Shown here: in pieces, positions 68-18,478 of the stretch
How the letters are laid out: every line of letters begins with the position of its first letter
How positions within the stretch are numbered: position 1 is the first letter of the stretch
Source: a bacterium
Lineage (GTDB): Bacteria; Bacteroidota; Ignavibacteria; UBA10030
Length of the DNA: 18,478 nucleotides
Assembly (NCBI GenBank): GCA_043803945.1
Contig: JAZDJN010000069.1
Span: forward strand, 1 to 18,478
Direction: 5' to 3'
Made by a program: the position numbers and the translations under genes
Notes under the pieces: generated by a model
The model's database searches: none
What the model was told of the DNA's origin: nothing
Seen by the model: only the letters and a program-made list of their open reading frames with translations

Positions 68-136
68 TTCATCTTTCCGCTTTTTTCTTTAATATAACGG
101 AAAGATATTTTATGCGCAATTATTTATGTCGCTATG
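1..136 (-). mobile_element. Left end of a probable IS630-family insertion sequence
   Basis: Upstream of the transposase-like start lies (minus strand) CATAGCGACATAAATAATTGCGCATAAAA, ending at 136 and abutting a TA at 137-138. IS630/Tc1 elements insert at TA. The partner inverted repeat is outside the window. Confidence 0.5.
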
Positions 137-176
137 TATAGCAATCACCGAAGCAGAGCTTAGAAACCAACGTTGC

Positions 177-240
177 ATTCCGCTCATTGAACGGAGCGAA
201 ACATGATTCCCGCTCGCTTGTCCGCCAGACACATGGAGAA
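177..240 (+). ncRNA. Conserved structured intergenic element, copy 1 (partial: P2 and P3 only)
   Basis: ATTCCG-9nt-CGGAGC hairpin (177-197), GAAACATGATTCC linker, then CTCGC-TTGTCCGCCAGACA-CATGGAGAA. Homologous to 1924-1987 and 17593-17656. Confidence 0.6.
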
Positions 241-307
241 AACGTAGACCGCATAATTGTTACCTGATCAGTTTTTAAGATATTATGAAAAAACAAAAGG
301 TGCACCG

Positions 308-1858
308 ATGAGGCTTCTAAAACTTATTATCACCATTCTTCTCTTCATTACTTCCATCAACGCCCAAACAGGCCTACGAACACTCCTTGAAGGCTATGGA
401 ACTCCTGGATCCAAAGATGCTTTAGGTTCGGGCATCATTGGCTTGGGGGATATTAACAATGATGGATGGGATGATTTTGCCGTAAGCGCCAGCGGATTGC
501 GAAAGACATTCATTTACTTTGGAGGACCTGGAAAGTTAGATGCCAATCCTGATGTTGCAATAAAGGGTGGCAATACAATGGTGATGGGTGATTTGAATGG
601 CGACGGGAGAAAGGATTTGGTTATTTGGCTGAGTGGATATGGTTATGGGATTGATACAGTGCTAGTCTATTTTGGAAAACAGCCTTCCCCGCTAGCCTTA
701 GATACAATTCCAGGATTAATATTAACAGGTGAGGTTGTTGAATGCCAGTTTGGAGCATCCATGGCAACAGGTGATTTGAATAATGATGGATTTGATGATT
801 TGGTTATTAGTGCAAGATATTTTAATTACTTGCGTGGGAAAGTGTATATATATCTGGGAAAAAAAAGACTGAGTGGTTTACCGGACTATGTTGCAATTGG
901 AGATTCTGCAAATGTTGGCTATGGCTATATCGTTCAGATTGATGATATAAATGGCGACAGATGGGTGGATCTTTTAATTAGTTCAGATGATCGTGGAGGT
1001 TTTTCAATGATTGATATTTTCTATGGTAGAGAAGAATTTACATTCACAAAGAATACCTTTAATCAACGATTAAATTCCAGACTAGTTTCTAATGGAACGT
1101 ATCTATACCTGGCAAGACTTGTTGATCTGAATAGTGACGTTATAAAGGATCTCTATTTCAGTCATCCTCAAGGGAAAGAAGGGTACGCTTTCTTAGGGAA
1201 TAAGGATTCCATTCGTTGGATACCCGATCTGATCTATCCTAATCCGGATCCGACATTTTTCACTCGCATGAGCCCATATGCGCATGATATTGGTGACTTC
1301 AACGGAGATGGAATTAAGGATTATGTGCTTTATGCCAGTATCGGTGCCCCCTGTGCACTTGTCTACATTGGAAAATCGAGCCAACCAACAAAACCATATG
1401 GTGTAAGAACGATTGTTGGATTACAGTATATTGCAGGTGTTGGGGATGTCAACGGAGATGGTGCAGATGATTTTGGCATGACTGTTCCTACTGATGCTCT
1501 CGATAGAGGTTATTTTGTCATCATCTCGGGAGAGAAAGGAGTATCAGAGGTCTCTCATGAGGAGAATGCTTATCCAAGAAATTATTCCCTCCGGCAGAAT
1601 TTTCCAAACCCATTCAATCCTTCAACAACAATAGAATATTCTCTCAAATCGCGAGAGAAGGTGTCTCTTGTCATCTATGATACATTGGGAAAAGAAATTC
1701 GAAACCTTGTCGAACAGATTAAAGATGCAGGAAAACACAGAGTTATATGGGACGGTAGGGATGCACGGGGAAGCAACGTCCCTTCAGGAGTGTATTTCTA
1801 TAAACTCATTGTTGGTTCTCAAACAATGATTCCAAAGAAAGCCATCCTCATAAAATAA
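308..1858 (+). CDS. Secreted FG-GAP repeat (integrin-alpha-like beta-propeller) protein with T9SS-type/FlgD-Ig C-terminal sorting domain, paralog 1
   Basis: Repeated GDxNxDGxDD Ca-binding motifs and 'FGASMATGD..GKVYIYLG'. Signal peptide MRLLKLIITILLFITSINA|Q. C-terminus QNFPNPFNPSTTIEY...WDGRD...PSGVYFY. Start moved to ATG 308 because it aligns with the starts of paralogs 2 and 3. Confidence 0.9.
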   Translation: MRLLKLIITILLFITSINAQTGLRTLLEGYGTPGSKDALGSGIIGLGDINNDGWDDFAVSASGLRKTFIYFGGPGKLDANPDVAIKGGNTMVMGDLNGDGRKDLVIWLSGYGYGIDTVLVYFGKQPSPLALDTIPGLILTGEVVECQFGASMATGDLNNDGFDDLVISARYFNYLRGKVYIYLGKKRLSGLPDYVAIGDSANVGYGYIVQIDDINGDRWVDLLISSDDRGGFSMIDIFYGREEFTFTKNTFNQRLNSRLVSNGTYLYLARLVDLNSDVIKDLYFSHPQGKEGYAFLGNKDSIRWIPDLIYPNPDPTFFTRMSPYAHDIGDFNGDGIKDYVLYASIGAPCALVYIGKSSQPTKPYGVRTIVGLQYIAGVGDVNGDGADDFGMTVPTDALDRGYFVIISGEKGVSEVSHEENAYPRNYSLRQNFPNPFNPSTTIEYSLKSREKVSLVIYDTLGKEIRNLVEQIKDAGKHRVIWDGRDARGSNVPSGVYFYKLIVGSQTMIPKKAILIK

Positions 1859-1893
1859 TGCAAAAAACAAAACCAAGGAGGTGGTTTTTATGA
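1858..1893 (+). CDS. Putative 11-aa translationally coupled micropeptide MQKTKPRRWFL
   Basis: ATG overlaps the upstream stop (TAATG). Same length, position and RRWF ending as 17525-17560. Confidence 0.4.
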   Translation: MQKTKPRRWFL

Positions 1894-1898
1894 GATGA
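1875..1898 (+). promoter_or_regulatory. Strong Shine-Dalgarno (AAGGAGGT) followed by an ATG-AGA-TGA minigene
   Basis: AAGGAG at 1875-1880, 9-nt spacer, ATGAGATGA at 1890-1898. The SD sits largely in the loop of the AAAACCA/TGGTTTT hairpin (1869-1888). Same spacing at 17542-17565. Confidence 0.5.
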
Positions 1899-1911: not shown

Positions 1912-2036
1912 GAATAGCCCTCGATCCCGCTTTTCAGGCGGGATGAAAAATGATCCCTGCTCGGTTGTCCGCCAGACAAATTGAGAAGAAATACATCTTT
2001 CGGGATGTGTAAGTATCCCCGAGGGCTTTTGTTTTT
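1912..2036 (+). ncRNA. Conserved structured intergenic element, copy 2 (complete), ending in a U-rich tract
   Basis: P1 AGCCCTCG (1916-1923) pairs with CGAGGGCT (2020-2027). It encloses P2 ATCCCGC/GCGGGAT (1924-1944), P3 CTCGGTTGTC-CGCCA-GACAAATTGAG (1960-1985) and P4 ATACATCT-TTCG-GGATGTGT (1991-2010). TTTGTTTTT follows. G-U pairs and the UUCG loop favour the + strand. Confidence 0.7.
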
Positions 2037-2077
2037 ATAATACCTTTTTACTCACGATTTATCAAGGAGGAAATACA

Positions 2078-4030
2078 ATGAAAAGGAAAGCATGCTTTTA
2101 CTCGATTCTATTTCCTATCTTCATTCTTCTTATGAACATGGAACAGGAAGCACAGACTCAGTCGAAATTTCTAATTGGCGTCGATTGGATAACGCTGCCC
2201 CCTCGTCCGCCGTACACTAACATCATTCCGACCAAGGCAGAATGGGATACACTATCGTCACTCGGTGTGAATTGCGGGATGATTGCATTGCCTGAGAGAG
2301 ATAATATTCAAGATTATTATAACTCAGTTTCTACAGCTCTTGGAAGCTCACCCATCGATCTCATAATTTTTGGATACAGGTTCTCACGTTTCACAGATGG
2401 ACATCGCTGGGTGTATCACCCTGAATACAATCAGCATTATCCAGGCTTCACGGGCAGGAGAGGCCAAGGCTCTTTGGAAGGAGCAGGTAGTGCCGACGCC
2501 GATTTAGATCAAACACAAGTAAATATTAACGCTTGGCGAGTTCTATCGGGCAGTGGCGGAGATTCTTCTGGTTATATTGCCAATGGACTGCTAATGAACT
2601 CAGAGCAACCAGATTCCGTTAGGTACTTTATAAAAGTGAGAATGCGGCTTGTGTTAGATACACCGTTTGACAACAAGCCAGCTCTTGTTGTTAAGGCTGT
2701 TCGTGCCGACACCACAATGGTGGATACCATATTTGCCAATGAGTTCAGTAATTATAACTACAGGGAAGTTCCCTCTCTCGTATTTAGAAAAATGCCCGTT
2801 GGCCAAACAGCACAACCCCAACAAAGTATTAATGAAATTAGGGTCAGCCATGTCCCCCCACGCGATACGATAGGATATGCAACAGGCCATCCCGATGAAG
2901 TGATATCTACCGCAAGTAACACAGCTTTTGATTATCAACTCTATTGGCCCGGCCAGGTCTCTTGCTTCGTCGATTATATCGCGATAGATGATAGTGTGAG
3001 TAATCGTTTATTCTTAGGAACAAATGATACAGCCATTTCAGGGGAGGTCATACGATTCAGGGATAGCACAAAACTTATCAAGTTTAAAATCAACGATGAG
3101 CCAGCTTCACCACACTGGCCATTGGTTGGATATGTTGATAATATCATTCGATCAAATCTTACTGCCGGAAATTTAACTAAACGCGGATTTCACTATAACA
3201 TTGGTTATGATAATCCCGATCCAGATCGAATGGTGAAGAGAAATATCCGGATAACCGGAACCATGCAAAACATGGCCGATATTTATCCGTTTAAAGCCGA
3301 TCTTTCAAAAACTCCATGGCCCAGCAGTAACAATTATACTTCCGAGATCCAATGGTGGGTGCAAACCTACCTGATTGATAAACTTGCAATCAATATTAAA
3401 CATTCGAAGGCAAACGACCGGGATTTTTGGTATCAAGCTCAGGCACACTCCTGGGAAAACTTTGAAAATGGTATATGGAATGGCGATCAGAGGGAACCGA
3501 CGGTTGGAGAAATAAGACTCCAGGTAAATCTTGCTCTTGCTTATGGTGCGAAGGGGATACAATACTTTCTCTACAGATCATATGATTCACAAGCTGATCG
3601 AATCAGAGGCATTGGGCTAACCAATGTCGATGGTTCAAAAAGAGAGATAATACATCAAGGTACTTCATATGCAGGGAATAAATGGGAAACGGTCAAAGCG
3701 ATCAATCAAAAGCTTTCTTCACTCGGCCCTACTCTAGTAAATCTCACTTGGCTTGGAGCAAAAAGTTGGCATAATGAAACGGTGTACGGTTCCTGGGGAT
3801 CTCTAATAACCTCGATTCACACTGAATATCCCACTGAAACAAAATATATCGAAACGGCTCATTTTCAATATAACAATACTAACTATTTTTATGTTGTCAA
3901 TCGCAGAACAAAGCCTGATGAGTCAAGAACAATCAAGCTAACCTTTAACAATACAGTACCATGGAATATAATCGATATAGCACCTGGCATATCAACGCGT
4001 ATCAGATCTAATGACACATTTTCCATCTAA
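2078..4030 (+). CDS. Secreted glycoside-hydrolase-like (TIM-barrel) protein; N-terminal part of a gene interrupted by an in-frame TAA
   Basis: SD AAGGAGG precedes the ATG; hydrophobic signal peptide. Motifs 'INDEP', 'DIYP' and 'REPT..EIRLQVNLALAYGAKGIQYFLY' resemble GH-A clan/GH42-like barrels. The frame continues past the stop. Confidence 0.75.
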   Translation: MKRKACFYSILFPIFILLMNMEQEAQTQSKFLIGVDWITLPPRPPYTNIIPTKAEWDTLSSLGVNCGMIALPERDNIQDYYNSVSTALGSSPIDLIIFGYRFSRFTDGHRWVYHPEYNQHYPGFTGRRGQGSLEGAGSADADLDQTQVNINAWRVLSGSGGDSSGYIANGLLMNSEQPDSVRYFIKVRMRLVLDTPFDNKPALVVKAVRADTTMVDTIFANEFSNYNYREVPSLVFRKMPVGQTAQPQQSINEIRVSHVPPRDTIGYATGHPDEVISTASNTAFDYQLYWPGQVSCFVDYIAIDDSVSNRLFLGTNDTAISGEVIRFRDSTKLIKFKINDEPASPHWPLVGYVDNIIRSNLTAGNLTKRGFHYNIGYDNPDPDRMVKRNIRITGTMQNMADIYPFKADLSKTPWPSSNNYTSEIQWWVQTYLIDKLAINIKHSKANDRDFWYQAQAHSWENFENGIWNGDQREPTVGEIRLQVNLALAYGAKGIQYFLYRSYDSQADRIRGIGLTNVDGSKREIIHQGTSYAGNKWETVKAINQKLSSLGPTLVNLTWLGAKSWHNETVYGSWGSLITSIHTEYPTETKYIETAHFQYNNTNYFYVVNRRTKPDESRTIKLTFNNTVPWNIIDIAPGISTRIRSNDTFSI

Positions 4031-4054
4031 ATTCTACCCGGTGATGGAAAGTTA

Positions 4055-5851
4055 TTGCGATCGGAAATAGGTACACCTGATCCACCCAACCTCACCTCAC
4101 CCCAAAACGGTGCACCAAATGTTGATCCACTTCCTCAATTGTGGTGGGAACTGGTCACTGGCTGTATAATGTATCATATTCAGATAGCTAAGGACTTTGG
4201 CTTCACGGAAAAAAAAGACAGCGCTTTTGTAACTGAAAATTATAAAAGCGGTTTTTCCGAGTTAAGTGAAATGACTCAATACTTCTGGCGCGTCCGGGCC
4301 ATTCTGTCAAACGATACAACATGCTGGTCCTCAATCTGGAATTTCACCATTGGTCTTGGATCTCCAGAAGTGCTTTTACCACTTAATGGGGCAAGCAATA
4401 TCTCGTTGCAGCCAACATTTCACTGGAACCATTCTGACTACGCCACAACATACCGTCTACAAGTATCCAGCGATTCAGTATTCTCTCCAACTCATATTAT
4501 TGTGGAATCTTCATCAAATGATACTTCCTATACTCTCAGCGGATTGTTGAGTACGAGTACAGACTATTTTTGGCGTGTCCGTGAATTAGCCTTGACAGAT
4601 ACTGGTAGCTGGTCGTGGGTGCGAAGGTTTACTACCCAATCCGGAATAATTCATCACAGCATTAGACTTCCCCAAGGCTGGAACATGAACTCCAGCTTAG
4701 TCGCTCCACGAGACTCGACGCTTGATACAGTGTTTGTAAAAATCAAATCCCACCTTATTATAGCAAAGAATGGAGCCGGTCAAGTCTATTGGCCTGTATT
4801 TAGTATCAATACAATCGGTAAGTGGAAATGGTGGCATGGATATCAAATCTATATGAATGTAACCGATACACTCACGATCGAAGGTAATGAAGTAGAACCA
4901 TATACACATCCAATTGCACTCATTCAAGGATGGAATCTCTCGGCTTATCTCCGGAATAAGCCAATGAGGTGTGATTCAGCAATAAATAGTATAGCATCCA
5001 CTCTTGTACTATTGAAGAACAATGAAGGTCAAACTTATTGGCCTGAATATTATCCCAATATCTTCATTGATATGAAACCTGGACAAGGTTATCAGATATA
5101 CCTCTCAAGTGCAGCAACCCTCACCTATCCACCGAATCAATCTCCTGCTCCTCTACAATTGCTTTCAAAAACACATTCATTGACATCAAATGTTTTTGAA
5201 TATCCAAAACCAAAACACTATAAATCGGATAACCTCAACACAGGAGTGAATGCAACCCTATTAATCGAAGCTCCTGGATTGAAAGATGAAGATGAGATCG
5301 CCGTTTGGGATAAAGGAAAACGACTTGTTGGTTCTGGAATTATCAAAGCTGGAAAAGCTGTAATAACCATTTGGGGTCAGAATGAGATTACAAAAGATAA
5401 GGTAGAAGGTCCTTTAAAAGGGGAAATTCTGAACCTCACCTGCTGGACACAAAAGGATGGAAAAGAAAAATCTATTGAACTTAATCCGTTGAATGACGTA
5501 CTCACAAAGAAAAAGATAGATAATGTCTTGCGATATGAAAAAGATGGTGTATGGACTGTTCGCCTCTCCGATCAGGGGTCAAATCAAAATCAAGAGGCGC
5601 TTTTAGAGAATTATCCCAATCCGTTTAATCCAACGACAATGATACGGTTTGCAGTCCCAACTGATGGAAAAGTAACATTGAGAATATTCGATATTCTCGG
5701 AAGAGTTGTCATGACGCTACTTGATGAGCCGCGAGTTGCAGGATTTCATCAAGTCCAACTCGATGCGAGCCACCTCCCATCAGGAATGTATGTCATTCAT
5801 CTCAAGACAAAAGAAACGAACCTATCGAAAAAAATAATCCTCACAAAATAG
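4055..5851 (+). CDS. Two Fn3-like repeats, 'L.QGWN..S' repeat domain and T9SS-type C-terminal sorting domain; C-terminal part of the interrupted gene
   Basis: Repeats of 'P.L.SP.NGA.N....P...W...Y.(L/I)Q...D..F...YFWRVR'. C-terminus ENYPNPFNPTTMIRF...LPSGMY. No SD or signal peptide of its own, and in frame with 2078-4030. Confidence 0.75.
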   Translation: MRSEIGTPDPPNLTSPQNGAPNVDPLPQLWWELVTGCIMYHIQIAKDFGFTEKKDSAFVTENYKSGFSELSEMTQYFWRVRAILSNDTTCWSSIWNFTIGLGSPEVLLPLNGASNISLQPTFHWNHSDYATTYRLQVSSDSVFSPTHIIVESSSNDTSYTLSGLLSTSTDYFWRVRELALTDTGSWSWVRRFTTQSGIIHHSIRLPQGWNMNSSLVAPRDSTLDTVFVKIKSHLIIAKNGAGQVYWPVFSINTIGKWKWWHGYQIYMNVTDTLTIEGNEVEPYTHPIALIQGWNLSAYLRNKPMRCDSAINSIASTLVLLKNNEGQTYWPEYYPNIFIDMKPGQGYQIYLSSAATLTYPPNQSPAPLQLLSKTHSLTSNVFEYPKPKHYKSDNLNTGVNATLLIEAPGLKDEDEIAVWDKGKRLVGSGIIKAGKAVITIWGQNEITKDKVEGPLKGEILNLTCWTQKDGKEKSIELNPLNDVLTKKKIDNVLRYEKDGVWTVRLSDQGSNQNQEALLENYPNPFNPTTMIRFAVPTDGKVTLRIFDILGRVVMTLLDEPRVAGFHQVQLDASHLPSGMYVIHLKTKETNLSKKIILTK

Positions 5852-6137: not shown

Positions 6138-7298
6138 ATGAAACAGCAACAAAAATTTATTGACGGTCTGTTACAGGCATGGCGCGATGAGATGGTCAGC
6201 GCAAAGAACTATCGGGCATTGGCAGAGAGGGAGCAAAACGATCGCCGAAAAGCAATTCTTGAGCGGATGGCAAAAGCGGAAGAACGCCACGCCTCCCGAT
6301 GGGCGCAGCGATTGAAGGAGCTCAATGTTCAGGTTCCCGAGTATGCCGAGTCGATGAATGAAAAAATTCACCGGTGGATCATCATGCGAAGCGACGCAGA
6401 ATCTGCGGCGAAGATGCTTGAGGAAGCAGAATCGGCGGCAGACACGCTGTACGAAACACTGCTTGCCTCAGCCCCCAACGATGAAGATCGAGCAGCGCTG
6501 CATGAAGTGAAGCTCGAAGAGAACACACACAGCAAGATGCTGGAAGAATTTGCCGGTTCGCATCAACCCTCCTTTGTGCAGTCGCGTCTCGAACATATTC
6601 TGGGGAGAGAACGCTGGCATGTTCGCGCGGGCGGATGGTTCGGTCAAGCCATCTACGGTGCGAACGACGGGCTTGGGGCTGCATTCGGCGTAGTGAGCGG
6701 CGTGGCCGGAGCAACACAGGCAAACAGCGAATTTGTTCTTCTGAGCGGGATTGCAGCGGCGATTGCCTCTGCCTTGTCGATGGGAAGCGGTGCATACCTT
6801 GCCACGAAATCGGAACGGGAAGTCTATGAAGCGGAGATAGAAAAGGAACGCCGCGAAATTGAAGAGAGCCCCGAAGAAGAGATCGAAGAGATGGAATTGT
6901 TCTATCAATTGAAAGGATTCTCGCCCGAACAGGCAAAGTTGCTCGCTGCAAAACTTGCCGAGCAGCCCGATCATCTGTTGAAAGCCCTTGCCCACGAAGA
7001 GCTCGGCTTGTCCGAGCAATCGTTCCCGAACCAGTGGCGGTCAGCAATGAGCGCTACCATCAGCACGGCGATTGGGGCAATTATTCCAGTGCTGCCGTTT
7101 CTCTTTAGCACGGGACAGACAGCATTACTGCTGTCATTTATCGTCAGCACCCTGGCGCATTTTCTGGTCGGTGCCTCTAAAGTGTTTGTTACCGGCCGTT
7201 CATGGATGAAGAGTGGAATCGAAATGACGCTGGTCGGCCTCGGTGCCGCACTCATCACGTATGCCGTAGGCATGCTGATTGCACCGATTATCGAATAG
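6138..7298 (+). CDS. Ferritin-like (erythrin) domain plus VIT1/CCC1 membrane domain; MbfA-like iron exporter
   Basis: N-terminal di-iron motifs 'DEMVSAKNY', 'AEERH', 'EENTH'. VIT1 signatures 'IYGANDGL', 'ALSMGSGAYLATKSE', an acidic cytoplasmic loop and C-terminal TM helices. Confidence 0.88.
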   Translation: MKQQQKFIDGLLQAWRDEMVSAKNYRALAEREQNDRRKAILERMAKAEERHASRWAQRLKELNVQVPEYAESMNEKIHRWIIMRSDAESAAKMLEEAESAADTLYETLLASAPNDEDRAALHEVKLEENTHSKMLEEFAGSHQPSFVQSRLEHILGRERWHVRAGGWFGQAIYGANDGLGAAFGVVSGVAGATQANSEFVLLSGIAAAIASALSMGSGAYLATKSEREVYEAEIEKERREIEESPEEEIEEMELFYQLKGFSPEQAKLLAAKLAEQPDHLLKALAHEELGLSEQSFPNQWRSAMSATISTAIGAIIPVLPFLFSTGQTALLLSFIVSTLAHFLVGASKVFVTGRSWMKSGIEMTLVGLGAALITYAVGMLIAPIIE

Positions 7299-15968: not shown

Positions 15969-17525
15969 ATGAAACCGCTAAAGATTCTTTTTGCCACCCT
16001 CTTATTCATTACCATCACCAAGGCACAAACGAGCTTACGAAATCTCCTTGAGGGATATGGAGCACCAGGATCCAAAGATGCTTTAGGTTCAGGCATCATT
16101 GGTTTAGGAGATATCAACAATGATGGCTGGGACGATTTTGCGGTAAGTGCAAGCGGTTTACGAAAGACATATATCTACTTTGGAGGACCTGGAATCTTAG
16201 ATGCTATCCCTGACGTGGCCATTAAAGGTGGAGGCACAATGGTGATGGGAGATTTGAATGGCGATGGAAAAAAAGATTTGGCGATCTGGTTAAGCGGATA
16301 TAGCTTTGGGGGCATTGATACGGTGCTAGTCTATCTGGGAAAACAACCTTCTCCAATCGGTCTGGACACAATCCCCTCATTAATACTTTCTGGTGAAAAT
16401 GTTGAAGATCAATTTGGAGCAACCATGGCGATTGGCGATTTAAATAAAGACGGATATGATGATTTAGTTATTAGTGCAAGATATTTTAATTACTCGAATG
16501 GAAAAGTCTATATATATATGGGAAAAAAATTACTCGGTAATCTCCCCGATTTTACTGCATTGGGTGATACTACAATTTCTGGTTATGGTTATATTATCCA
16601 AATTGCTGATGTGAGTGGTGATGGAGTTGACGATTTAGTTATTAGCTCTCCTGATCGTCGCCAAGAGTCTACTCTGCTTGATATTTTCTATGGTCGAAAA
16701 GGATTCTCTTTTACACAGAATGCTTTCAATCACCGCTTAGATTCCCGAAATATTATTAATGGTGCGTATCTATACCTAGCAAGACTTGTCGATGTGAATT
16801 GTGACGGGATAGATGACCTCTATTTCAGTCATCCTCAAGGGAAAGAAGGATACGCATTCTTAGGGAGGAAAGACTCGATGCGTTGGACACCCGACCTGAT
16901 TTATCCTAATCCTGATCCAACATTTTTCACTCGTATGAGTCCGTATGCTTGTGATATTGGAGACTTCAACGGAGATGGAATTGAGGACTATATTCTCACT
17001 GCCAGCATTGGTGCTCCCTGCGCACTAGTTTACATCGGAAAATCAAACCAACCGACAAAACCTTATGGCGTAAGAGCAGTTGTTGGATTACAATATATAG
17101 CTGGTGTTGGTGATGTGAATGGTGATGGGGCAGATGATTTTGGTATGACAGCTCCTACCGATGCGCTAGATAGGGGTTACTTTGTCATCTTATCAGGAGA
17201 GAAAGGAGTATCAGAAGTCTCCAACGAGAAAAACGTATTCAATGAAAATTACTCCCTGCAACAGAACTTTCCCAACCCCTTCAATCCCATGACAACAATT
17301 GAGTATTCTCTTTCTAGGAGAAATCAAGTCTCACTAATTATTTATGATACCTTAGGAAAAGAGGTGCGAAAACTTGTCAATCAAATTCAAAATGAAGGAA
17401 ATTATAGAGTACTCTGGGATGGAAGGGATGCTCAGGGTAACCACGTCTCTTCTGGTGTGTATTATTACAAACTTATTCTTGGTTCTCGAACAGAGATTTC
17501 AAAGAAGGCAATCCACTTGAGATGA
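15969..17525 (+). CDS. Secreted FG-GAP repeat protein with T9SS-type/FlgD-Ig C-terminal domain, paralog 2
   Basis: Collinear over its full length with 308-1858, with long identical peptide blocks such as PDLIYPNPDPTFFTRMSPYA and DLYFSHPQGKEGYAFLG. Confidence 0.92.
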   Translation: MKPLKILFATLLFITITKAQTSLRNLLEGYGAPGSKDALGSGIIGLGDINNDGWDDFAVSASGLRKTYIYFGGPGILDAIPDVAIKGGGTMVMGDLNGDGKKDLAIWLSGYSFGGIDTVLVYLGKQPSPIGLDTIPSLILSGENVEDQFGATMAIGDLNKDGYDDLVISARYFNYSNGKVYIYMGKKLLGNLPDFTALGDTTISGYGYIIQIADVSGDGVDDLVISSPDRRQESTLLDIFYGRKGFSFTQNAFNHRLDSRNIINGAYLYLARLVDVNCDGIDDLYFSHPQGKEGYAFLGRKDSMRWTPDLIYPNPDPTFFTRMSPYACDIGDFNGDGIEDYILTASIGAPCALVYIGKSNQPTKPYGVRAVVGLQYIAGVGDVNGDGADDFGMTAPTDALDRGYFVILSGEKGVSEVSNEKNVFNENYSLQQNFPNPFNPMTTIEYSLSRRNQVSLIIYDTLGKEVRKLVNQIQNEGNYRVLWDGRDAQGNHVSSGVYYYKLILGSRTEISKKAIHLR

Positions 17526-17560
17526 TGTTTGAGATAAATCTAAGGAGATGGTTCATATGA
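17525..17560 (+). CDS. Putative 11-aa translationally coupled micropeptide MFEINLRRWFI
   Basis: ATG overlaps the upstream stop (TGATG). Homologous to 1858-1893. Confidence 0.4.
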   Translation: MFEINLRRWFI

Positions 17561-17565
17561 GATGA
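17542..17565 (+). promoter_or_regulatory. Shine-Dalgarno plus ATG-AGA-TGA minigene, second copy
   Basis: AAGGAG at 17542-17547, 9-nt spacer, ATGAGATGA at 17557-17565. Confidence 0.5.
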
Positions 17566-17580
17566 ATATCGTTTAATAAA

Positions 17581-17701
17581 GAATAGCCCTAGACTCCGAT
17601 CAATGAACGGAGTGAAAAACGATTCCTACTCGCTTGTCCGCCAGACAAATTGAGAAGAAATACATTGTTCAGATAGACTACAGAACATTTACATTCTGAG
17701 G
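17581..17701 (+). ncRNA. Conserved structured intergenic element, copy 3
   Basis: GAATAGCCCT start; P2 ACTCCG-9nt-CGGAGT (17593-17613); 32 nt identical to copy 2 (17634-17665); a different P4 TGTTC/GAACA (17666-17687); weakened P1 partner CTGAGG (17696-17701). Confidence 0.65.
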
Positions 17702-17765
17702 ACGAAGGTGTCTTTGCGTGATTACTTCGTGAGGTAGAGTGAAAACCATTTATAAAGGTGTACCG

Positions 17766-18359
17766 ATGAAACCACTAGAACTTTTATTTGCCACATTCTT
17801 ATTCGTTACTATCACAAACGCTCAAACGAGCTTACGAAATCTTCTTGAAGGATATGGGACACCCGGCTCGGATGATGGATTGGGCTCCGGTATCATCGGC
17901 TTGGGCGATATCAACAATGATGGCTGGGATGATTTTGCGGTAAGTGCAATTGGTATACATAAGACCTTCCTTTATTTCGGAGGACCAAAAATCTTGGATG
18001 CCGCCCCCGATATTGTACTTAAAGGTGGTGGTCGAATGTCAATTGGAGATTTGAATGGTGATGGAAGGAAAGATTTAGTTATTAGGCAAAGCGTTACAAC
18101 AGGCAATATCGATACATTGCTTGTATATTTTGGGAAACAACCTTCTCTTGCTTCTCCCTTATCTCTTGATACAATCCCTGGTTTTATTTTTTATAGTGAA
18201 ACTGGAGTAGATATGTATGGTTACTCTTTTGCCATTGGTGATTTAAATGCTGATGGATTTGATGACCTTGTGGTGAGTGCTAGTTGGTATAGCTCTTATA
18301 GAGGGAAAATATATGTCTATCTTGGAGGAAAGACACTAACTGATGTTACGCAAAAATAG
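17766..18359 (+). pseudogene. FG-GAP repeat protein paralog 3, truncated after about three repeats, no C-terminal sorting domain
   Basis: Aligns to the first ~190 residues of paralogs 1 and 2, then stops at TAG 18357-18359. No convincing continuation in any frame. Start set at ATG 17766 by alignment. Confidence 0.75.
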
Positions 18360-18478
18360 GTTTTGCGGTCCAATCGATCGGTTGAAGAGATCTCAAATGC
18401 TTGAATGCGGTTTTCAGTGCATGTAAATGCAGATTGAGTTTTAACCCTTCATATGAGACCGCGGTTATTCTGTGCATC

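What the first reader, a model, noticed from the sequence alone, without database searches (positions are those of the whole stretch)
1912..2036. Unrecognised multi-stem RNA motif, present three times, always in front of a secreted-protein gene
Seen in sequence: three copies at 177-240, 1912-2036 and 17581-17701. The P2 stem covaries: ATCCCG/CGGGAT in copy 2 versus ACTCCG/CGGAGT in copy 3 (two compensatory pair swaps), and TTCCG/CGGAG with a G-U pair in copy 1. The enclosed segment is 9 nt in all three. TTGTC-CGCCA-GACA is invariant, and 32 nt are identical between 1965-1996 and 17634-17665 although the neighbouring paralogous genes differ at many synonymous sites. P4 keeps a hairpin shape with unrelated sequence. 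In copy 2 an 8-bp long-range P1 closes the structure directly before a U-tract; in copy 3 P1 is weak and the U-tract is missing. Inference: a cis-regulatory RNA (attenuator, riboswitch-like, or processing/stability element) that tunes expression of tandem T9SS-type cargo genes. I cannot match it to any riboswitch or ribozyme consensus I know.
Basis: partly seen in the sequence, partly recalled or inferred. Interest (0 to 1): 0.9.

Follow-up and report, generated by a model that had tools for sequence, protein, structure and literature searches.

The report
Mini-ORF plus four-way-junction terminator RNA
A conserved, previously uncatalogued RNA element of Ignavibacteria-type bacteria sits between a beta-propeller gene and a secreted protease or other large secreted-protein gene; it joins a tiny translated-looking reading frame to a branched transcription terminator and probably sets how much of the downstream gene is made.

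Summary
The element is larger than described. It starts about 35 nt further 5' with a very strong Shine-Dalgarno site and a 2-5-codon mini-ORF (mostly AUG-AGA-UGA). An A-rich spacer follows, then a junction of P2, a long P3 and P4. The closing helix P1 (AGCCCUCG/CGAGGGCU) is followed directly by a U-tract, so it looks like an intrinsic terminator. I found 33 copies by inspection of model hits: 8 in this genome plus one relic, 22 in 18 related genomes, and 3 on metagenome contigs. All hits lie within one class. None reaches any Rfam threshold. Covariation supports all five helices. Every copy with identifiable neighbours is co-oriented with them. Upstream is a beta-propeller gene ending 0-28 nt before the SD in most copies. 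Downstream is a signal-peptide protein, often an S8 subtilase. My best reading (about 0.5) is an intercistronic attenuator gated by translation of the mini-ORF. A terminator-embedded aptamer or protein site, or a constitutive terminator or stabiliser, remain open. There are no expression data.

The parts
136..279 (+). Copy 1, partial: P2 (178-196) and long-form P3 (about 198-243, core 218-231). It has no SD or mini-ORF, no P1, no P4 and no U-tract. It lies in the 5' UTR of the FG-GAP gene at 308-1858.
   Evidence: R1 match at 46.3 bits; alignment A1; coordinates.
308..1858 (+). Upstream gene of copy 2: FG-GAP beta-propeller protein with a T9SS C-terminal sorting domain. Its stop lies 18 nt before the SD.
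   Evidence: Pfam FG-GAP and Por_Secre_tail; gap.
1877..1885 (+). Copy 2: extended Shine-Dalgarno site GGAGGTGGT.
   Evidence: 8 of 9 match to GGAGGTGAT, 8 nt before the ATG.
1890..1898 (+). Copy 2: mini-ORF ATG AGA TGA. An overlapping second frame, ATG AAG TAG, lies at 1895-1903.
1916..1923 (+). Copy 2: P1 5' arm AGCCCTCG.
1924..1944 (+). Copy 2: P2 hairpin.
   Evidence: MFE structures; covariation in helix 2.
1945..2001 (+). Copy 2: long P3. The lower stem is GAAA.AUG/CAU.UUUC, the middle CUC/GAG, the apical stem UUGUC/GACAA with loop CGCCA.
   Evidence: MFE structures; helices 3 and 4.
2002..2019 (+). Copy 2: P4 hairpin GGGAUG/UAUCCC.
   Evidence: helix 5.
2020..2038 (+). Copy 2: P1 3' arm CGAGGGCT (2020-2027) running into the U-tract TTTTGTTTTTAT.
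2078..4030 (+). Downstream gene of copy 2: 650-aa protein with a signal-peptide-like N-terminus and no Pfam or NCBIfam family. Together with 4055-5851 it corresponds to the single 1049-aa gene behind the C18 copy.
15969..17525 (+). Upstream gene of copy 3: FG-GAP protein with a T9SS sorting domain. Its stop lies 18 nt before the SD.
17544..17670 (+). Copy 3, 5' part only: SD GGAGATGGT (17544-17552), mini-ORF ATGAGATGA (17557-17565), P1 5' arm AGCCCTAG (17585-17592), P2 (17593-17613) and P3 (17614-17670). It has no P1 3' arm and no U-tract.
   Evidence: R1 match at 150.3 bits; only 25.4 bits with the short-form model; MFE structure; coordinates.
17739..18359 (+). Downstream gene of copy 3: FG-GAP paralogue, cut short near the end of the contig. 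Its likely start is the ATG at 17766, preceded by GGTG.

Best explanation
The element is an intercistronic cis-regulatory RNA, transcribed with its two flanking genes.

Layout, in order:
- the stop codon of a beta-propeller gene;
- 0-28 nt later (129 nt in the C35 copy and 128 nt in G064, the two copies that also lack a mini-ORF), an extended Shine-Dalgarno site, GGAGGUGAU-like;
- a 2-5-codon mini-ORF, AUG-AGA-UGA in 13 copies;
- an A-rich spacer;
- a branched structure of P2, a long P3 and P4, closed by the GC-rich helix P1;
- a U-tract directly after P1;
- 26-118 nt later, the SD and start codon of a signal-peptide protein, which is an S8 subtilase, a metalloprotease precursor or a large T9SS cargo protein.

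Shown here: the structure, its covariation, its strand, the mini-ORF architecture, the U-tract, the gene context and the absence from Rfam.

Inferred: P1 plus the U-tract acts as an intrinsic terminator once the junction has folded. It limits read-through from the propeller gene into the secreted-enzyme gene. A ribosome loaded on the mini-ORF decides whether the P1 5' arm is free when the 3' arm emerges. That ribosome could arrive by re-initiation after the upstream gene.

I favour ribosome occupancy blocking P1, which gives read-through, because:
- in the 3-5-codon forms the stop codon lies 1-3 nt before P1;
- in the AUGAGAUGA forms the stop overlaps a second AUG (AUGA), and that frame ends 12 nt or less before P1 or runs into P1/P2.

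The opposite sign is not excluded. Ribosome binding could free a P1 5' arm that otherwise pairs with the SD, and so favour termination.
For: **Structure**
- Single-sequence MFE closes P1 in 25 of 27 copies and gives the three-hairpin junction in 14 of 27.
- Of 27 cores, 20 were folded against dinucleotide shuffles. In 14 of those 20, none of 200 shuffles folded as well; z ranged from -0.86 to -7.46.
- On the 22-row alignment A8, 83.4% of cells pair against 70.6% when shuffled (0 of 500 shuffles reach it).
- 22 of 30 pairs change on both sides, against 13.4 expected.
- The covariation score is 0.308, against 0.120 shuffled and at most 0.134 for slid partners.
- P1 itself covaries: AGCCCCCG/CGGGGGC, AGCCCUUG/CAAGGGC and AGCCUCUUG/CAAGAGGCU.

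**Strand**
- 32 G-U cells in A8.
- Forward against reverse model scores are, for example, 123.9 against 30.4 bits.

**Terminator**
- 21 of 27 copies have at least 6 U in the 10 nt after P1, against 4.2% of random genomic 10-mers.

**Mini-ORF**
- 18 of 29 tabulated copies have an SD matching GGAGGTGAT at 7 or more of 9 positions, an ATG 8-10 nt after the GGAGG core, and an ORF of 5 codons or fewer that ends before P1. One more was read by eye and two are ambiguous.
- Two of three further copies also have one.
- The sense codon varies while start and stop stay in frame: AGA, AGC, CUA, GAC, and longer peptides MKK, MKQR, MKRR, MIVQS, MVLQR.
- Genome-wide in G000, 23 sites combine an SD matching at 8 or more of 9 positions, an ATG and an ORF of 6 codons or fewer. 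Five of the 23 are element copies.

**Context**
- Upstream proteins carry beta-propeller repeats in 17 of 20 scanned and in both window cases.
- Downstream, Peptidase_S8 is found in 9 of 17 and PepSY or FTP propeptides in 2 of 17.

**Published analogues**
- Translation of a short ORF can decide termination in the bmrB-bmrCD system (PMC4191407, abstract).
- Two-codon minigenes act in cis (PMC8708949 and PMC3262186, abstracts).
Against: - There are no expression or 3'-end data: no sequencing run was listed.
- Eight of the 29 tabulated copies have no recognisable SD-plus-AUG mini-ORF yet mostly keep P1 and the U-tract (C35, G064, G173, G023, G017b, G077 weak, G042 and G146b with AUA). The terminator part therefore does not depend on the mini-ORF.
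- In the commonest form the AUG-AGA-UGA stop lies 10-19 nt before P1. By recalled knowledge, a ribosome protects roughly 12-15 nt 3' of the P site. It would therefore not cover P1 unless it re-initiates on the overlapping frame, whose length (2-16 codons) and peptide are not conserved.
- No conserved antiterminator was found. SD:P1-5' pairing appears in the MFE of partial transcripts in only about 5 of 22 copies and is weaker than P1.
- P1 and the P3 apex are conserved in sequence, not only in pairing. That fits recognition by a factor at least as well.
- Six of 27 copies have a weak U-tract.
- A8 is fitted to the model, which favours the structure.
- Chance alone gives an in-frame stop before P1 in 24-69% of shuffled spacers per copy (13 valid rows).
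Confidence: 0.5

Rival explanations
1. A terminator-embedded aptamer or protein-binding RNA. The junction binds a small molecule or an RNA-binding protein, and this stabilises or destabilises P1. The terminator stem is then itself the switch, and the mini-ORF is secondary or has a separate role.
For: - The closing helix runs directly into the U-tract, so P1 formation equals termination.
- Sequence conservation is concentrated in P1, the P3 apex (UCUCUGCCAGGAGA-like) and the A-rich strand after P2, while P2 and P4 vary freely.
- Some copies keep P1, P3 and the U-tract without a mini-ORF.
- Copies 1 and 3 of the window and C95:2205-2300 keep the P2-P3 part alone in FG-GAP gene leaders.
- An aptamer embedded in a terminator stem is documented for HMP-PP riboswitches (PMC6478431, abstract).
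Against: - The conserved nucleotides lie mostly inside helices, not in junctions or internal loops.
- P2 and P4 are reduced or lost in several members. That is unusual for a ligand pocket formed by a junction.
- The regulated genes are secreted proteases and adhesin-like proteins, not one metabolic pathway, so no ligand suggests itself.
- There is no weak similarity to any riboswitch model.
- This reading does not explain why an unusually strong SD and a mini-ORF accompany about two thirds of copies.
Confidence: 0.2
2. A constitutive intercistronic terminator and 3'-end stabiliser or processing site. The very stable branched structure ends or attenuates the propeller-gene transcript at a fixed ratio and protects its 3' end. 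A ribosome parked on the mini-ORF would merely shield the RNA. The terminated SD-to-U-tract piece might persist as a 3'-UTR-derived small RNA.
For: - The element follows a stop codon by 0-28 nt in most copies.
- It is very stable, at -18 to -48 kcal/mol.
- The A-rich spacer is complementary to the U-tract and extends P1 in the MFE of several copies.
- The downstream gene has its own SD, and conserved boxes (GAUAC, AAACACAAAA) follow the U-tract and could belong to a separate promoter or leader.
- The same kind of gene pair also occurs without the element, only 18 nt apart, at G077:C131.
- A two-codon mini-ORF that may protect mRNA from endonuclease attack is described for axe-txe (PMC8708949, abstract).
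Against: - A plain GC hairpin would do the same job. Conservation of a long P3 with a defined apical sequence across at least 9 families is not explained (families f1, f2, f5, f7, f8, f19, f21, f28 and the metagenome copies).
- The conserved start and stop architecture and the extended SD suggest a selected interaction with ribosomes.
Confidence: 0.2
3. A mobile or selfish intergenic repeat (MITE- or REP-like). The terminal inverted repeats would be the P1 arms with their A/T-rich flanks, and there would be no RNA function.
For: - The distribution is patchy, for example 7 of 86 genomes of the family by my reading.
- G000 holds 8 copies.
- The arms form a perfect 8-bp inverted repeat with complementary flanks.
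- Earlier notes of this scan report REP-like repeat families elsewhere in this genome (unchecked).
Against: - All copies with identifiable neighbours are co-oriented with both genes. Only G173 scores about the same on both strands.
- The internal helices P2 and P4 differ completely in sequence yet keep pairing. That pattern indicates selection on RNA structure, not recent transposition.
- The copies within G000 are old and diverged and travel with paralogous gene cassettes.
- The SD and mini-ORF lie outside the inverted repeat yet are the best-conserved part.
- No transposase, target-site duplication or near-identical copy was seen.
Confidence: 0.04

Closest known systems
Ribosome-mediated transcription attenuators with a leader ORF. 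Examples are bmrB-bmrCD of Bacillus subtilis (PMC4191407, abstract read), msrD leader regulation (PMC10314930, search listing only), and the classical trp/his/pyrBI leaders (recalled).
   Same: A short ORF with its own ribosome-binding site stands immediately before or over an intrinsic terminator. Whether and where a ribosome sits decides termination of the downstream gene.
   Different: - The ORF here is only 2-5 codons and carries no run of regulatory codons.
- No conserved alternative antiterminator hairpin was found.
- The terminator stem encloses a 57-96-nt three-hairpin insert.
- The element is intercistronic, directly behind another gene.
- The controlled genes encode secreted proteases or T9SS cargo, not biosynthetic or resistance genes.
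- Nothing has been tested experimentally.
HMP-PP (thiS motif) riboswitch, a 'terminator-embedded aptamer' (PMC6478431, abstract read).
   Same: A conserved functional RNA is built into the stem of an intrinsic terminator, so the sensing domain and the terminator are one structure.
   Different: - The thiS aptamer is unusually small and sits in an otherwise classic hairpin. Here the stem closes a multi-helix junction.
- The thiS ligand and gene association are clear, whereas no ligand is indicated here.
- thiS has no mini-ORF.
- There is no sequence or model similarity: Rfam gives no hit.
Two-codon minigenes that act in cis: axe-txe mg2 (PMC8708949, abstract read), the EHEC LEE1 leader AUG-AAA-UAG (PMC3262186, abstract read), phage lambda bar minigenes (recalled), and bacterial 'start-stop' sites (bioRxiv 10.1101/520783, search listing only).
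   Same: All share an SD, an AUG, one sense codon and a stop. Translation of the mini-ORF, rather than its product, matters, and its position relative to the next feature is critical.
   Different: - Those minigenes modulate translation or stability of a closely adjacent cistron. Here the next feature is a terminator arm 1-19 nt away, and the next gene starts about 170-200 nt further on.
- Here the minigene belongs to a family-wide conserved RNA architecture.
Internal (intra-operon) partial terminators that set expression ratios between cistrons (general knowledge, recalled).
   Same: Both sit between co-directional genes, and both have a GC-rich stem followed by a U-tract.
   Different: Ordinary examples are simple hairpins without conserved sequence. 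They have no associated mini-ORF and no family-level covariation.

Membership tests
Any Rfam 15 family (riboswitches, leaders, ribozymes, sRNAs) | A covariance-model score at or above the family's gathering threshold. | tested here: not met
   There were 0 matches at gathering thresholds in the whole window and in 4 loci with other members. With permissive E-values on three copies, the best scores were 13-20 bits against thresholds of 35-90.
Intrinsic (Rho-independent) terminator | A GC-rich stem followed immediately by a U-rich tract. | tested here: met
   P1 is 7-9 bp and GC-rich. In 21 of 27 copies at least 6 of the next 10 nt are U, against 4.2% of random 10-mers. Six of 27 copies have a weak tract.
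Intrinsic (Rho-independent) terminator | A simple hairpin with a short loop. | tested here: not met
   The P1 arms are 57-96 nt apart and enclose up to three hairpins. The consensus terminator scan does not flag the site.
Intrinsic (Rho-independent) terminator | RNA 3' ends at the U-tract in vivo or in vitro. | not testable with these tools
   No sequencing run could be listed.
Leader-ORF (ribosome-mediated) transcription attenuator | A short ORF with an SD directly upstream of the terminator. | tested here: met
   18 of 29 tabulated copies meet the script's criteria. One more was read by eye and two are ambiguous. Two of three further copies also have one. Eight of the 29 lack it.
Leader-ORF (ribosome-mediated) transcription attenuator | Mutually exclusive antiterminator and terminator structures. 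| tested here: inconclusive
   In partial transcripts the SD pairs with the P1 5' arm in the MFE of about 5 of 22 copies. No conserved alternative helix was found.
Leader-ORF (ribosome-mediated) transcription attenuator | Regulatory codons or an arrest motif in the leader peptide. | tested here: inconclusive
   The last sense codon is Arg (AGA or CGA) in most copies, and Lys/Arg-rich peptides occur (MKK, MKQR, MKRR). The sequence here is A-rich anyway, and there are no codon runs.
Leader-ORF (ribosome-mediated) transcription attenuator | Location in the 5' leader of the regulated operon. | tested here: not met
   The element lies 0-28 nt behind the stop codon of a co-directional gene in most copies.
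Riboswitch | Direct binding of a small ligand, and association with genes of one pathway. | not testable with these tools
   Binding cannot be tested here. The gene association is with secreted proteases and T9SS cargo, which points to no metabolite.
MITE / REP-type mobile repeat | Copies in both orientations relative to genes, near-identical copies, and target-site duplications. | tested here: not met
   All copies with neighbours are co-oriented with them. The copies are diverged with compensatory changes. No duplications were seen.
tRNA or tRNA-like cloverleaf | Recognised by a tRNA finder; T-loop and D-loop consensus. | tested here: not met
   ARAGORN finds 0 genes in the window. The P4 loops are variable, 3-8 nt, with no T-loop motif.
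Two-codon minigene | SD, AUG, one sense codon, stop. | tested here: met
   AUG-AGA-UGA occurs in 13 copies, with AUG-AGC-UGA, AUG-CUA-UGA and AUG-GAC-UGA in others. Translation itself was not tested.

The most novel reading that the evidence does not exclude
This may be a new class of riboregulator in which a relay of tiny coupled reading frames delivers a ribosome to the 5' arm of a branched, terminator-closing junction. The relay would run from the upstream gene's stop, to the SD and AUG-NNN-UGA, to the overlapping AUG. Transcription of secreted protease and T9SS cargo genes would then report the translational state of the cell, such as amino-acid or tRNA supply or termination and recycling capacity. 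The conserved P3 could be a second input for a ligand or protein. It would be the first described cis-regulatory RNA family specific to Ignavibacteria and the first tied to secreted degradative enzymes.
Probability: 0.3. Interest if true: 0.75.

Novelty: new variant of a known kind. Interest (0 to 1): 0.6.

Why it matters
Cis-regulatory RNAs are almost unknown in Ignavibacteria and are rare for secreted-enzyme genes in any lineage. This element gives a defined, compact and testable candidate. It has about 130-165 nt, clear helices, a two-codon frame and a built-in terminator.

If the mini-ORF gates the terminator, it would show a minimal form of translation-coupled attenuation working between cistrons rather than in a leader. 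It would also suggest how these bacteria tie protease and T9SS cargo output to translational status.

If instead the junction binds a factor, it is a new terminator-embedded sensor.

Either way, the covariance model can now annotate these sites. Gene callers currently overrun them with spurious upstream start codons, for example the mechanical ORFs that start at window 257 and at L001 6332.

Tried and rejected
- **Rfam.** No family matched at gathering or permissive thresholds.
- **tRNA-like reading.** ARAGORN found nothing.
- **Consensus terminator and promoter scan.** It does not see the split stem, and promoter-like hits are at shuffle level.
- **Genome contigs pattern scan.** I used SD + ATGAGATGA + TGAAAAAT. 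It returned 54 loci. Only one (L020, the same place as G012:C74) is a member by the model; the rest are chance.
- **Metagenome pattern scan.** It returned 11 loci, of which 3 are members.
- **Sequencing runs.** None was listed, so expression and 3' ends could not be examined.
- **16S rRNA 3' end.** I looked for it in the assembly to check the anti-SD, and it was not found.
- **Antiterminator search by folding partial transcripts.** No conserved alternative helix emerged.
- **Shuffle test for an in-frame stop before P1.**
  - The script chose a wrong ATG, the one inside GGUGAUG, in 7 of 20 rows. I drop those rows.
  - In the 13 valid rows the stop is always present, against 24-69% per row by chance.
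  - For the 7 valid rows that are not ATGAGATGA, the joint chance is about 0.002. The rows are not independent.
- **Search with the upstream PD40 protein across 81 genomes of the order.**
  - There were 4 genomes with a hit.
  - G080 has a different, GC-rich, roughly 300-nt structured spacer behind its orthologue.
  - G077:C131 has no spacer element at all.
  - The element is therefore not obligatory for this gene pair.
- **Model hits in genus g17** (G056, G106, G107, G112 with two hits, G115) and in G125. By eye these are a different motif and a plain hairpin, and they were not counted as members.
- **Earlier findings of this scan.** Nothing was found near the site, by sequence or by words.
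- **Literature.** Three searches for a description of this motif found no paper that mentions Ignavibacteria together with such an element.
Full report
**1. Observation**

The core TTGTCCGCCAGACA occurs at 218, 1965 and 17634 and only once more in the genome, at C18:42303 on the minus strand.

The P2 arms and their 9-nt enclosed segments are as described. So are the 32-nt identity between 1965-1996 and 17634-17665, the 8-bp P1 with a U-tract in copy 2, and its absence in copy 3. Copy 2 folds into a closed multi-branch structure at -50.8 kcal/mol, with z = -5.0 and 0 of 200 shuffles as good. Copies 1 and 3, which lack the closing helix, do not stand out.

The elements in the window are 79-81% identical and the flanking paralogous genes 69-77%. 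The window copies are therefore paralogues carried along with duplicated gene cassettes. Within the window alone the case for selection would be weak.

**2. Anatomy, after adding more copies**

I built a covariance model from five copies (R1) and a second from ten short-form copies (R2).

In this genome R1 finds 8 places:
- C69:136-279, 1877-2040 and 17544-17701;
- C18:42241-42406 (minus strand);
- C96:1332-1475;
- C95:205-340 (minus strand);
- C23:2195-2365;
- C35:92562-92702 (minus strand).

nhmmer adds a P3-only relic at C95:2225-2281.

The parts, in order, are:
- an extended Shine-Dalgarno site, GGAGGUGGU or GAGGUGAUG;
- 4-6 nt later a mini-ORF, AUG-AGA-UGA in 13 copies;
- an A-rich spacer;
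- the P1 5' arm, AGCCCUCG;
- P2, a variable hairpin;
- a long P3, with a lower stem such as GAAAAA/UUUUUC, an internal loop, and an apical stem-loop UCUCU-GCCA-GGAGA (this genome's long form has an extra UUGUC-CGCCA-GACAA tip);
- P4, a variable hairpin;
- the P1 3' arm, CGAGGGCU;
- a U-tract.

Single-sequence folding closes P1 in 25 of 27 copies and gives the full three-hairpin junction in 14 of 27. The shorter members have a reduced P2 and/or P4 but keep P1 and P3. I folded 20 of the 27 cores against shuffles. In 14 of the 20, none of 200 dinucleotide shuffles folded as well, and z ran from -0.86 to -7.46.

**3. Covariation and strand**

On the 22-row forward-strand alignment A8, the measures are as follows:

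| Measure | Observed | Control |
|---|---|---|
| Cells paired | 83.4% | 70.6% shuffled (0 of 500 reach it) |
| Pairs changed on both sides | 22 of 30 | 13.4 shuffled |
| Covariation score | 0.308 | 0.120 shuffled; at most 0.134 slid |

All five helices show double changes. This alignment is fitted to the model, which favours the structure. Independent support comes from the single-sequence folds above and from striking individual cases:
- P1 as AGCCCCCG/CGGGGGC (G049a, G225), AGCCCUUG/CAAGGGC (G146a) and AGCCUCUUG/CAAGAGGCU (G235);
- P2 as CACCAUC/GAUGGU instead of GUCCCG/CGGGAU (G146a);
- a P3 lower stem flipped to UUUUU/AAAAA (G064).

A recurrent C-A mismatch in P1 (AGCCCCCG/CGAGGGCU) is unexplained.

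The transcribed strand is the gene-sense strand. There are 32 G-U cells in A8, and forward model scores far exceed reverse scores, for example 123.9 against 30.4 bits.

**4. Terminator and mini-ORF**

In 21 of 27 copies at least 6 of the 10 nt after P1 are U, against 4.2% of random genomic 10-mers. Six of the 27 are weaker.

Among the 29 copies tabulated:
- 18 have an SD matching GGAGGTGAT at 7 or more of 9 positions, an ATG 8-10 nt after the GGAGG core, and an ORF of 2-5 codons that ends before P1;
- one more (G012:C74) is evident by eye;
- two are ambiguous (G146a, G005);
- eight have none. Two of those carry AUA in place of AUG with the frame kept or extended.

Of three further copies from other orders, two have an AUG mini-ORF (MD*, MVLQR*) and one has AUU-AGA-UGA.

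The middle codon changes while start and stop stay in frame: AGA, AGC, CUA, GAC. The longer versions encode MKK, MLK (weak SD), MRE, MKQR, MKRR, MIVQS and MVLQR. The stop ends 10-19 nt before P1 in the two-codon forms and 1-3 nt before P1 in the 3-5-codon forms.

In the AUGAGAUGA forms the UGA overlaps a second AUG. That second frame ends 3-12 nt before P1 in 9 of the 12 computed cases and runs into P1/P2 in the other 3.

Genome-wide in G000 there are 1,364 sites matching the SD at 8 or more of 9 positions. Only 49 precede an ATG-started ORF of at least 50 codons, and 23 precede an ORF of 6 codons or fewer. Five of those 23 are element copies. The SD is therefore unusually strong, and the pairing of SD and mini-ORF with the structure is far from random.

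A shuffle test gives modest further support. In the 13 valid rows an in-frame stop before P1 is always present, against 24-69% per row by chance. Seven rows were dropped for a wrong start choice by my script.

**5. Distribution**

| Search | Model | Genomes with a hit (G000 included) | Members by my inspection |
|---|---|---|---|
| 101 relatives incl. G000 | R1 | 3 of 101 | 3 |
| Family | R2 | 13 of 86 | 7 |
| Order | R2 | 14 of 151 | 12 |
| Class | R2 | 6 of 151 | 6 |
| Phylum | R2 | 4 of 151 | 4, all in the same class |

- In the family search, five genomes of genus g17 carry a different motif and one has a plain hairpin.
- In the order search, two of the hits are that g17 motif.
- In the phylum sample, none of the 114 genomes from families that did not appear in the class sample had a hit.
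- All these searches used the stricter filters, so the counts are lower bounds.

Pattern scans added three metagenome contigs. They added nothing new among the species genomes: 1 true hit of 54, the same place as G012:C74, whose record is titled 'Bacteroidota bacterium'.

Earlier notes of this scan call the genome Ignavibacteria. I did not verify that label.

In total I count 33 copies: 8 in G000 including the partial copy 1, 22 in 18 other genomes, and 3 on metagenome contigs. The C95 relic is extra.

**6. Context**

Every copy with recognisable neighbours is co-oriented with both. G173 has no clear neighbours and scores alike on both strands.

The upstream ORF ends 0-28 nt before the SD in most copies. 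The exceptions are C35 (129 nt) and G064 (128 nt), which also lack the mini-ORF.

Upstream proteins carry beta-propeller repeats in 17 of 20 scanned:
- PD40 in 11;
- FG-GAP in 3;
- BNR/Sortilin in 2;
- Reg_prop in 1.

Two partial ORFs showed only the sorting domain, and one upstream gene is an isocitrate/isopropylmalate dehydrogenase. Both window cases are FG-GAP.

Among 17 downstream proteins scanned:
- 9 have Peptidase_S8;
- 2 have PepSY or FTP propeptides;
- 4 are large proteins with fn3, Laminin_G_3, beta-helix or InlB-repeat domains;
- 2 have no family.

Por_Secre_tail was found in 3 of the 7 full-length downstream proteins.

All downstream N-termini read like signal peptides. This is by eye, with no predictor run.

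In G000 the downstream proteins fall into two homologous groups. The 650-aa and 598-aa pair in the window equals the single 1049-aa gene at C18, at 65% identity over 656 residues. The 650-aa domain has no Pfam or NCBIfam family. The protein atlas offers only a lead towards GH42/GH2-like clusters.

The propeller-protease pair also exists without the element, at G077:C131 with an 18-nt spacer.

**7. Mechanism**

What is shown is the architecture. Function is inferred.

P1 followed at once by a U-tract means that folding of the junction creates an intrinsic terminator between the two cistrons. The mini-ORF places a ribosome directly 5' of the P1 5' arm. It has an SD stronger than that of nearly all genes here, and it sits where a ribosome leaving the upstream gene could re-initiate.

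In the 3-5-codon forms a ribosome at the stop codon must cover that arm. This rests on recalled knowledge that a ribosome shields roughly 12-15 nt 3' of the P site. In the two-codon forms this would need re-initiation at the overlapping AUG. AUGA overlaps are a common coupling signal (recalled).

I therefore favour translation-dependent antitermination. On this model, active coupled translation keeps P1 open and lets RNA polymerase run into the protease gene, and an unoccupied mini-ORF lets P1 close.

The reverse sign is possible. The P1 5' arm (CCCUC) resembles the anti-SD and pairs with the SD in the MFE of about 5 of 22 partial transcripts. That helix is weaker than P1.

Three things keep a factor-binding or constitutive role open:
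- copies that lack the mini-ORF but keep the terminator;
- the sequence conservation of P1 and the P3 apex;
- the P2-P3-only modules in FG-GAP leaders (copies 1 and 3, and C95:2205-2300).

I put the gated-terminator model at about 0.5. An aptamer or protein site is at 0.2, a constitutive terminator, stabiliser or processing site at 0.2, and a mobile repeat at 0.04.

**8. Comparison and novelty**

No Rfam family matches.

The element works most like leader-ORF attenuators such as bmrB-bmrCD (PMC4191407, abstract). It fails their membership features of a 5'-leader position and a demonstrable antiterminator.

It shares the 'structure inside the terminator stem' idea with HMP-PP riboswitches (PMC6478431, abstract). 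It shares the two-codon minigene with axe-txe and LEE1 (PMC8708949 and PMC3262186, abstracts).

Three literature searches found no description of such an element in Ignavibacteria or next to T9SS or protease genes. Supplements could not be consulted.

I rate it a new variant of a known kind: a new RNA family that combines known parts in an undescribed arrangement and context.

**9. Limits**

- There are no expression data.
- The taxon label is unverified.
- Member calls for weak hits were made by eye.
- Related sequences are not independent.
- The covariation alignment is model-fitted.
- Ribosome footprint arguments rest on recalled general knowledge.

Noticed in passing
L089:1501-1637 (-), L090, L091, L092, L093, L098 (genomes G056, G106, G112, G115, G107; genus g17): A different conserved structured element of about 130 nt gave weak hits to model R2. 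It is closed by a long helix, AACGUCCUCGAU...AUCGAGGACGUU, followed by U-rich sequence, and it is nearly identical in five genomes of one genus. It has no mini-ORF, and L089 has no Rfam match at gathering thresholds.
   Followed up: partly
window 2039-2077; L011 1476-1530; L005, L008, L015, L086, L087, L102, L103, L104 downstream of the U-tract: A conserved box (A/U)A(A/U)GAUAC lies about 13-20 nt after the P1 3' arm in about 13 of 29 copies. A CA-rich box, AAACACAAAA, lies in the leader of the downstream gene in several copies. These could be a promoter or leader element of the downstream gene, or a further part of the RNA.
   Followed up: no
window 2078-5851 versus L001 3054-6203 (-): The 650-aa and 598-aa genes behind copy 2 together correspond to the single 1049-aa gene behind the C18 copy, at 65% identity over the first 656 residues. 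This is either a split or a fusion.
   Followed up: partly
window 2078-4030: The 650-aa secreted-looking domain has no Pfam or NCBIfam family. It is shared with the C18 and C35 downstream proteins. The protein atlas gives only a lead to clusters where under half the members carry GH42 or GH2 domains.
   Followed up: partly
L002 2205-2300 (-) = C95:2205-2300; window 136-279: Relics consisting only of the P2/P3 part of the long form sit about 60-220 nt upstream of FG-GAP genes. This suggests that the module either has a role of its own in those leaders or decays slowly after cassette duplication.
   Followed up: partly
window 18360-18478: The FG-GAP paralogue behind copy 3 stops at 18359 after 206 codons, where its paralogues have about 520. 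The last 120 nt of the contig look unrelated. This may be a truncation, an insertion or an assembly end.
   Followed up: no
L115 (G080:C2), about 300 nt downstream of the PD40 gene: Behind the orthologous PD40 propeller gene, this relative has a GC-rich, very stable (-87 kcal/mol over 257 nt) intergenic region in place of the element.
   Followed up: no
window 6138-7298: This gene fuses a rubrerythrin/ferritin-like domain to a VIT1 iron-transporter domain. As far as I recall this is an ordinary, known architecture.
   Followed up: no
P1 of G012:C107, G180, G202, G077, C35, G064, G146b, G023: These copies share a C-A mismatch at the same P1 position (AGCCCCCG paired with CGAGGGCU). G049a and G225 restore a C-G pair there. 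It is unexplained and could matter for a tunable terminator.
   Followed up: no
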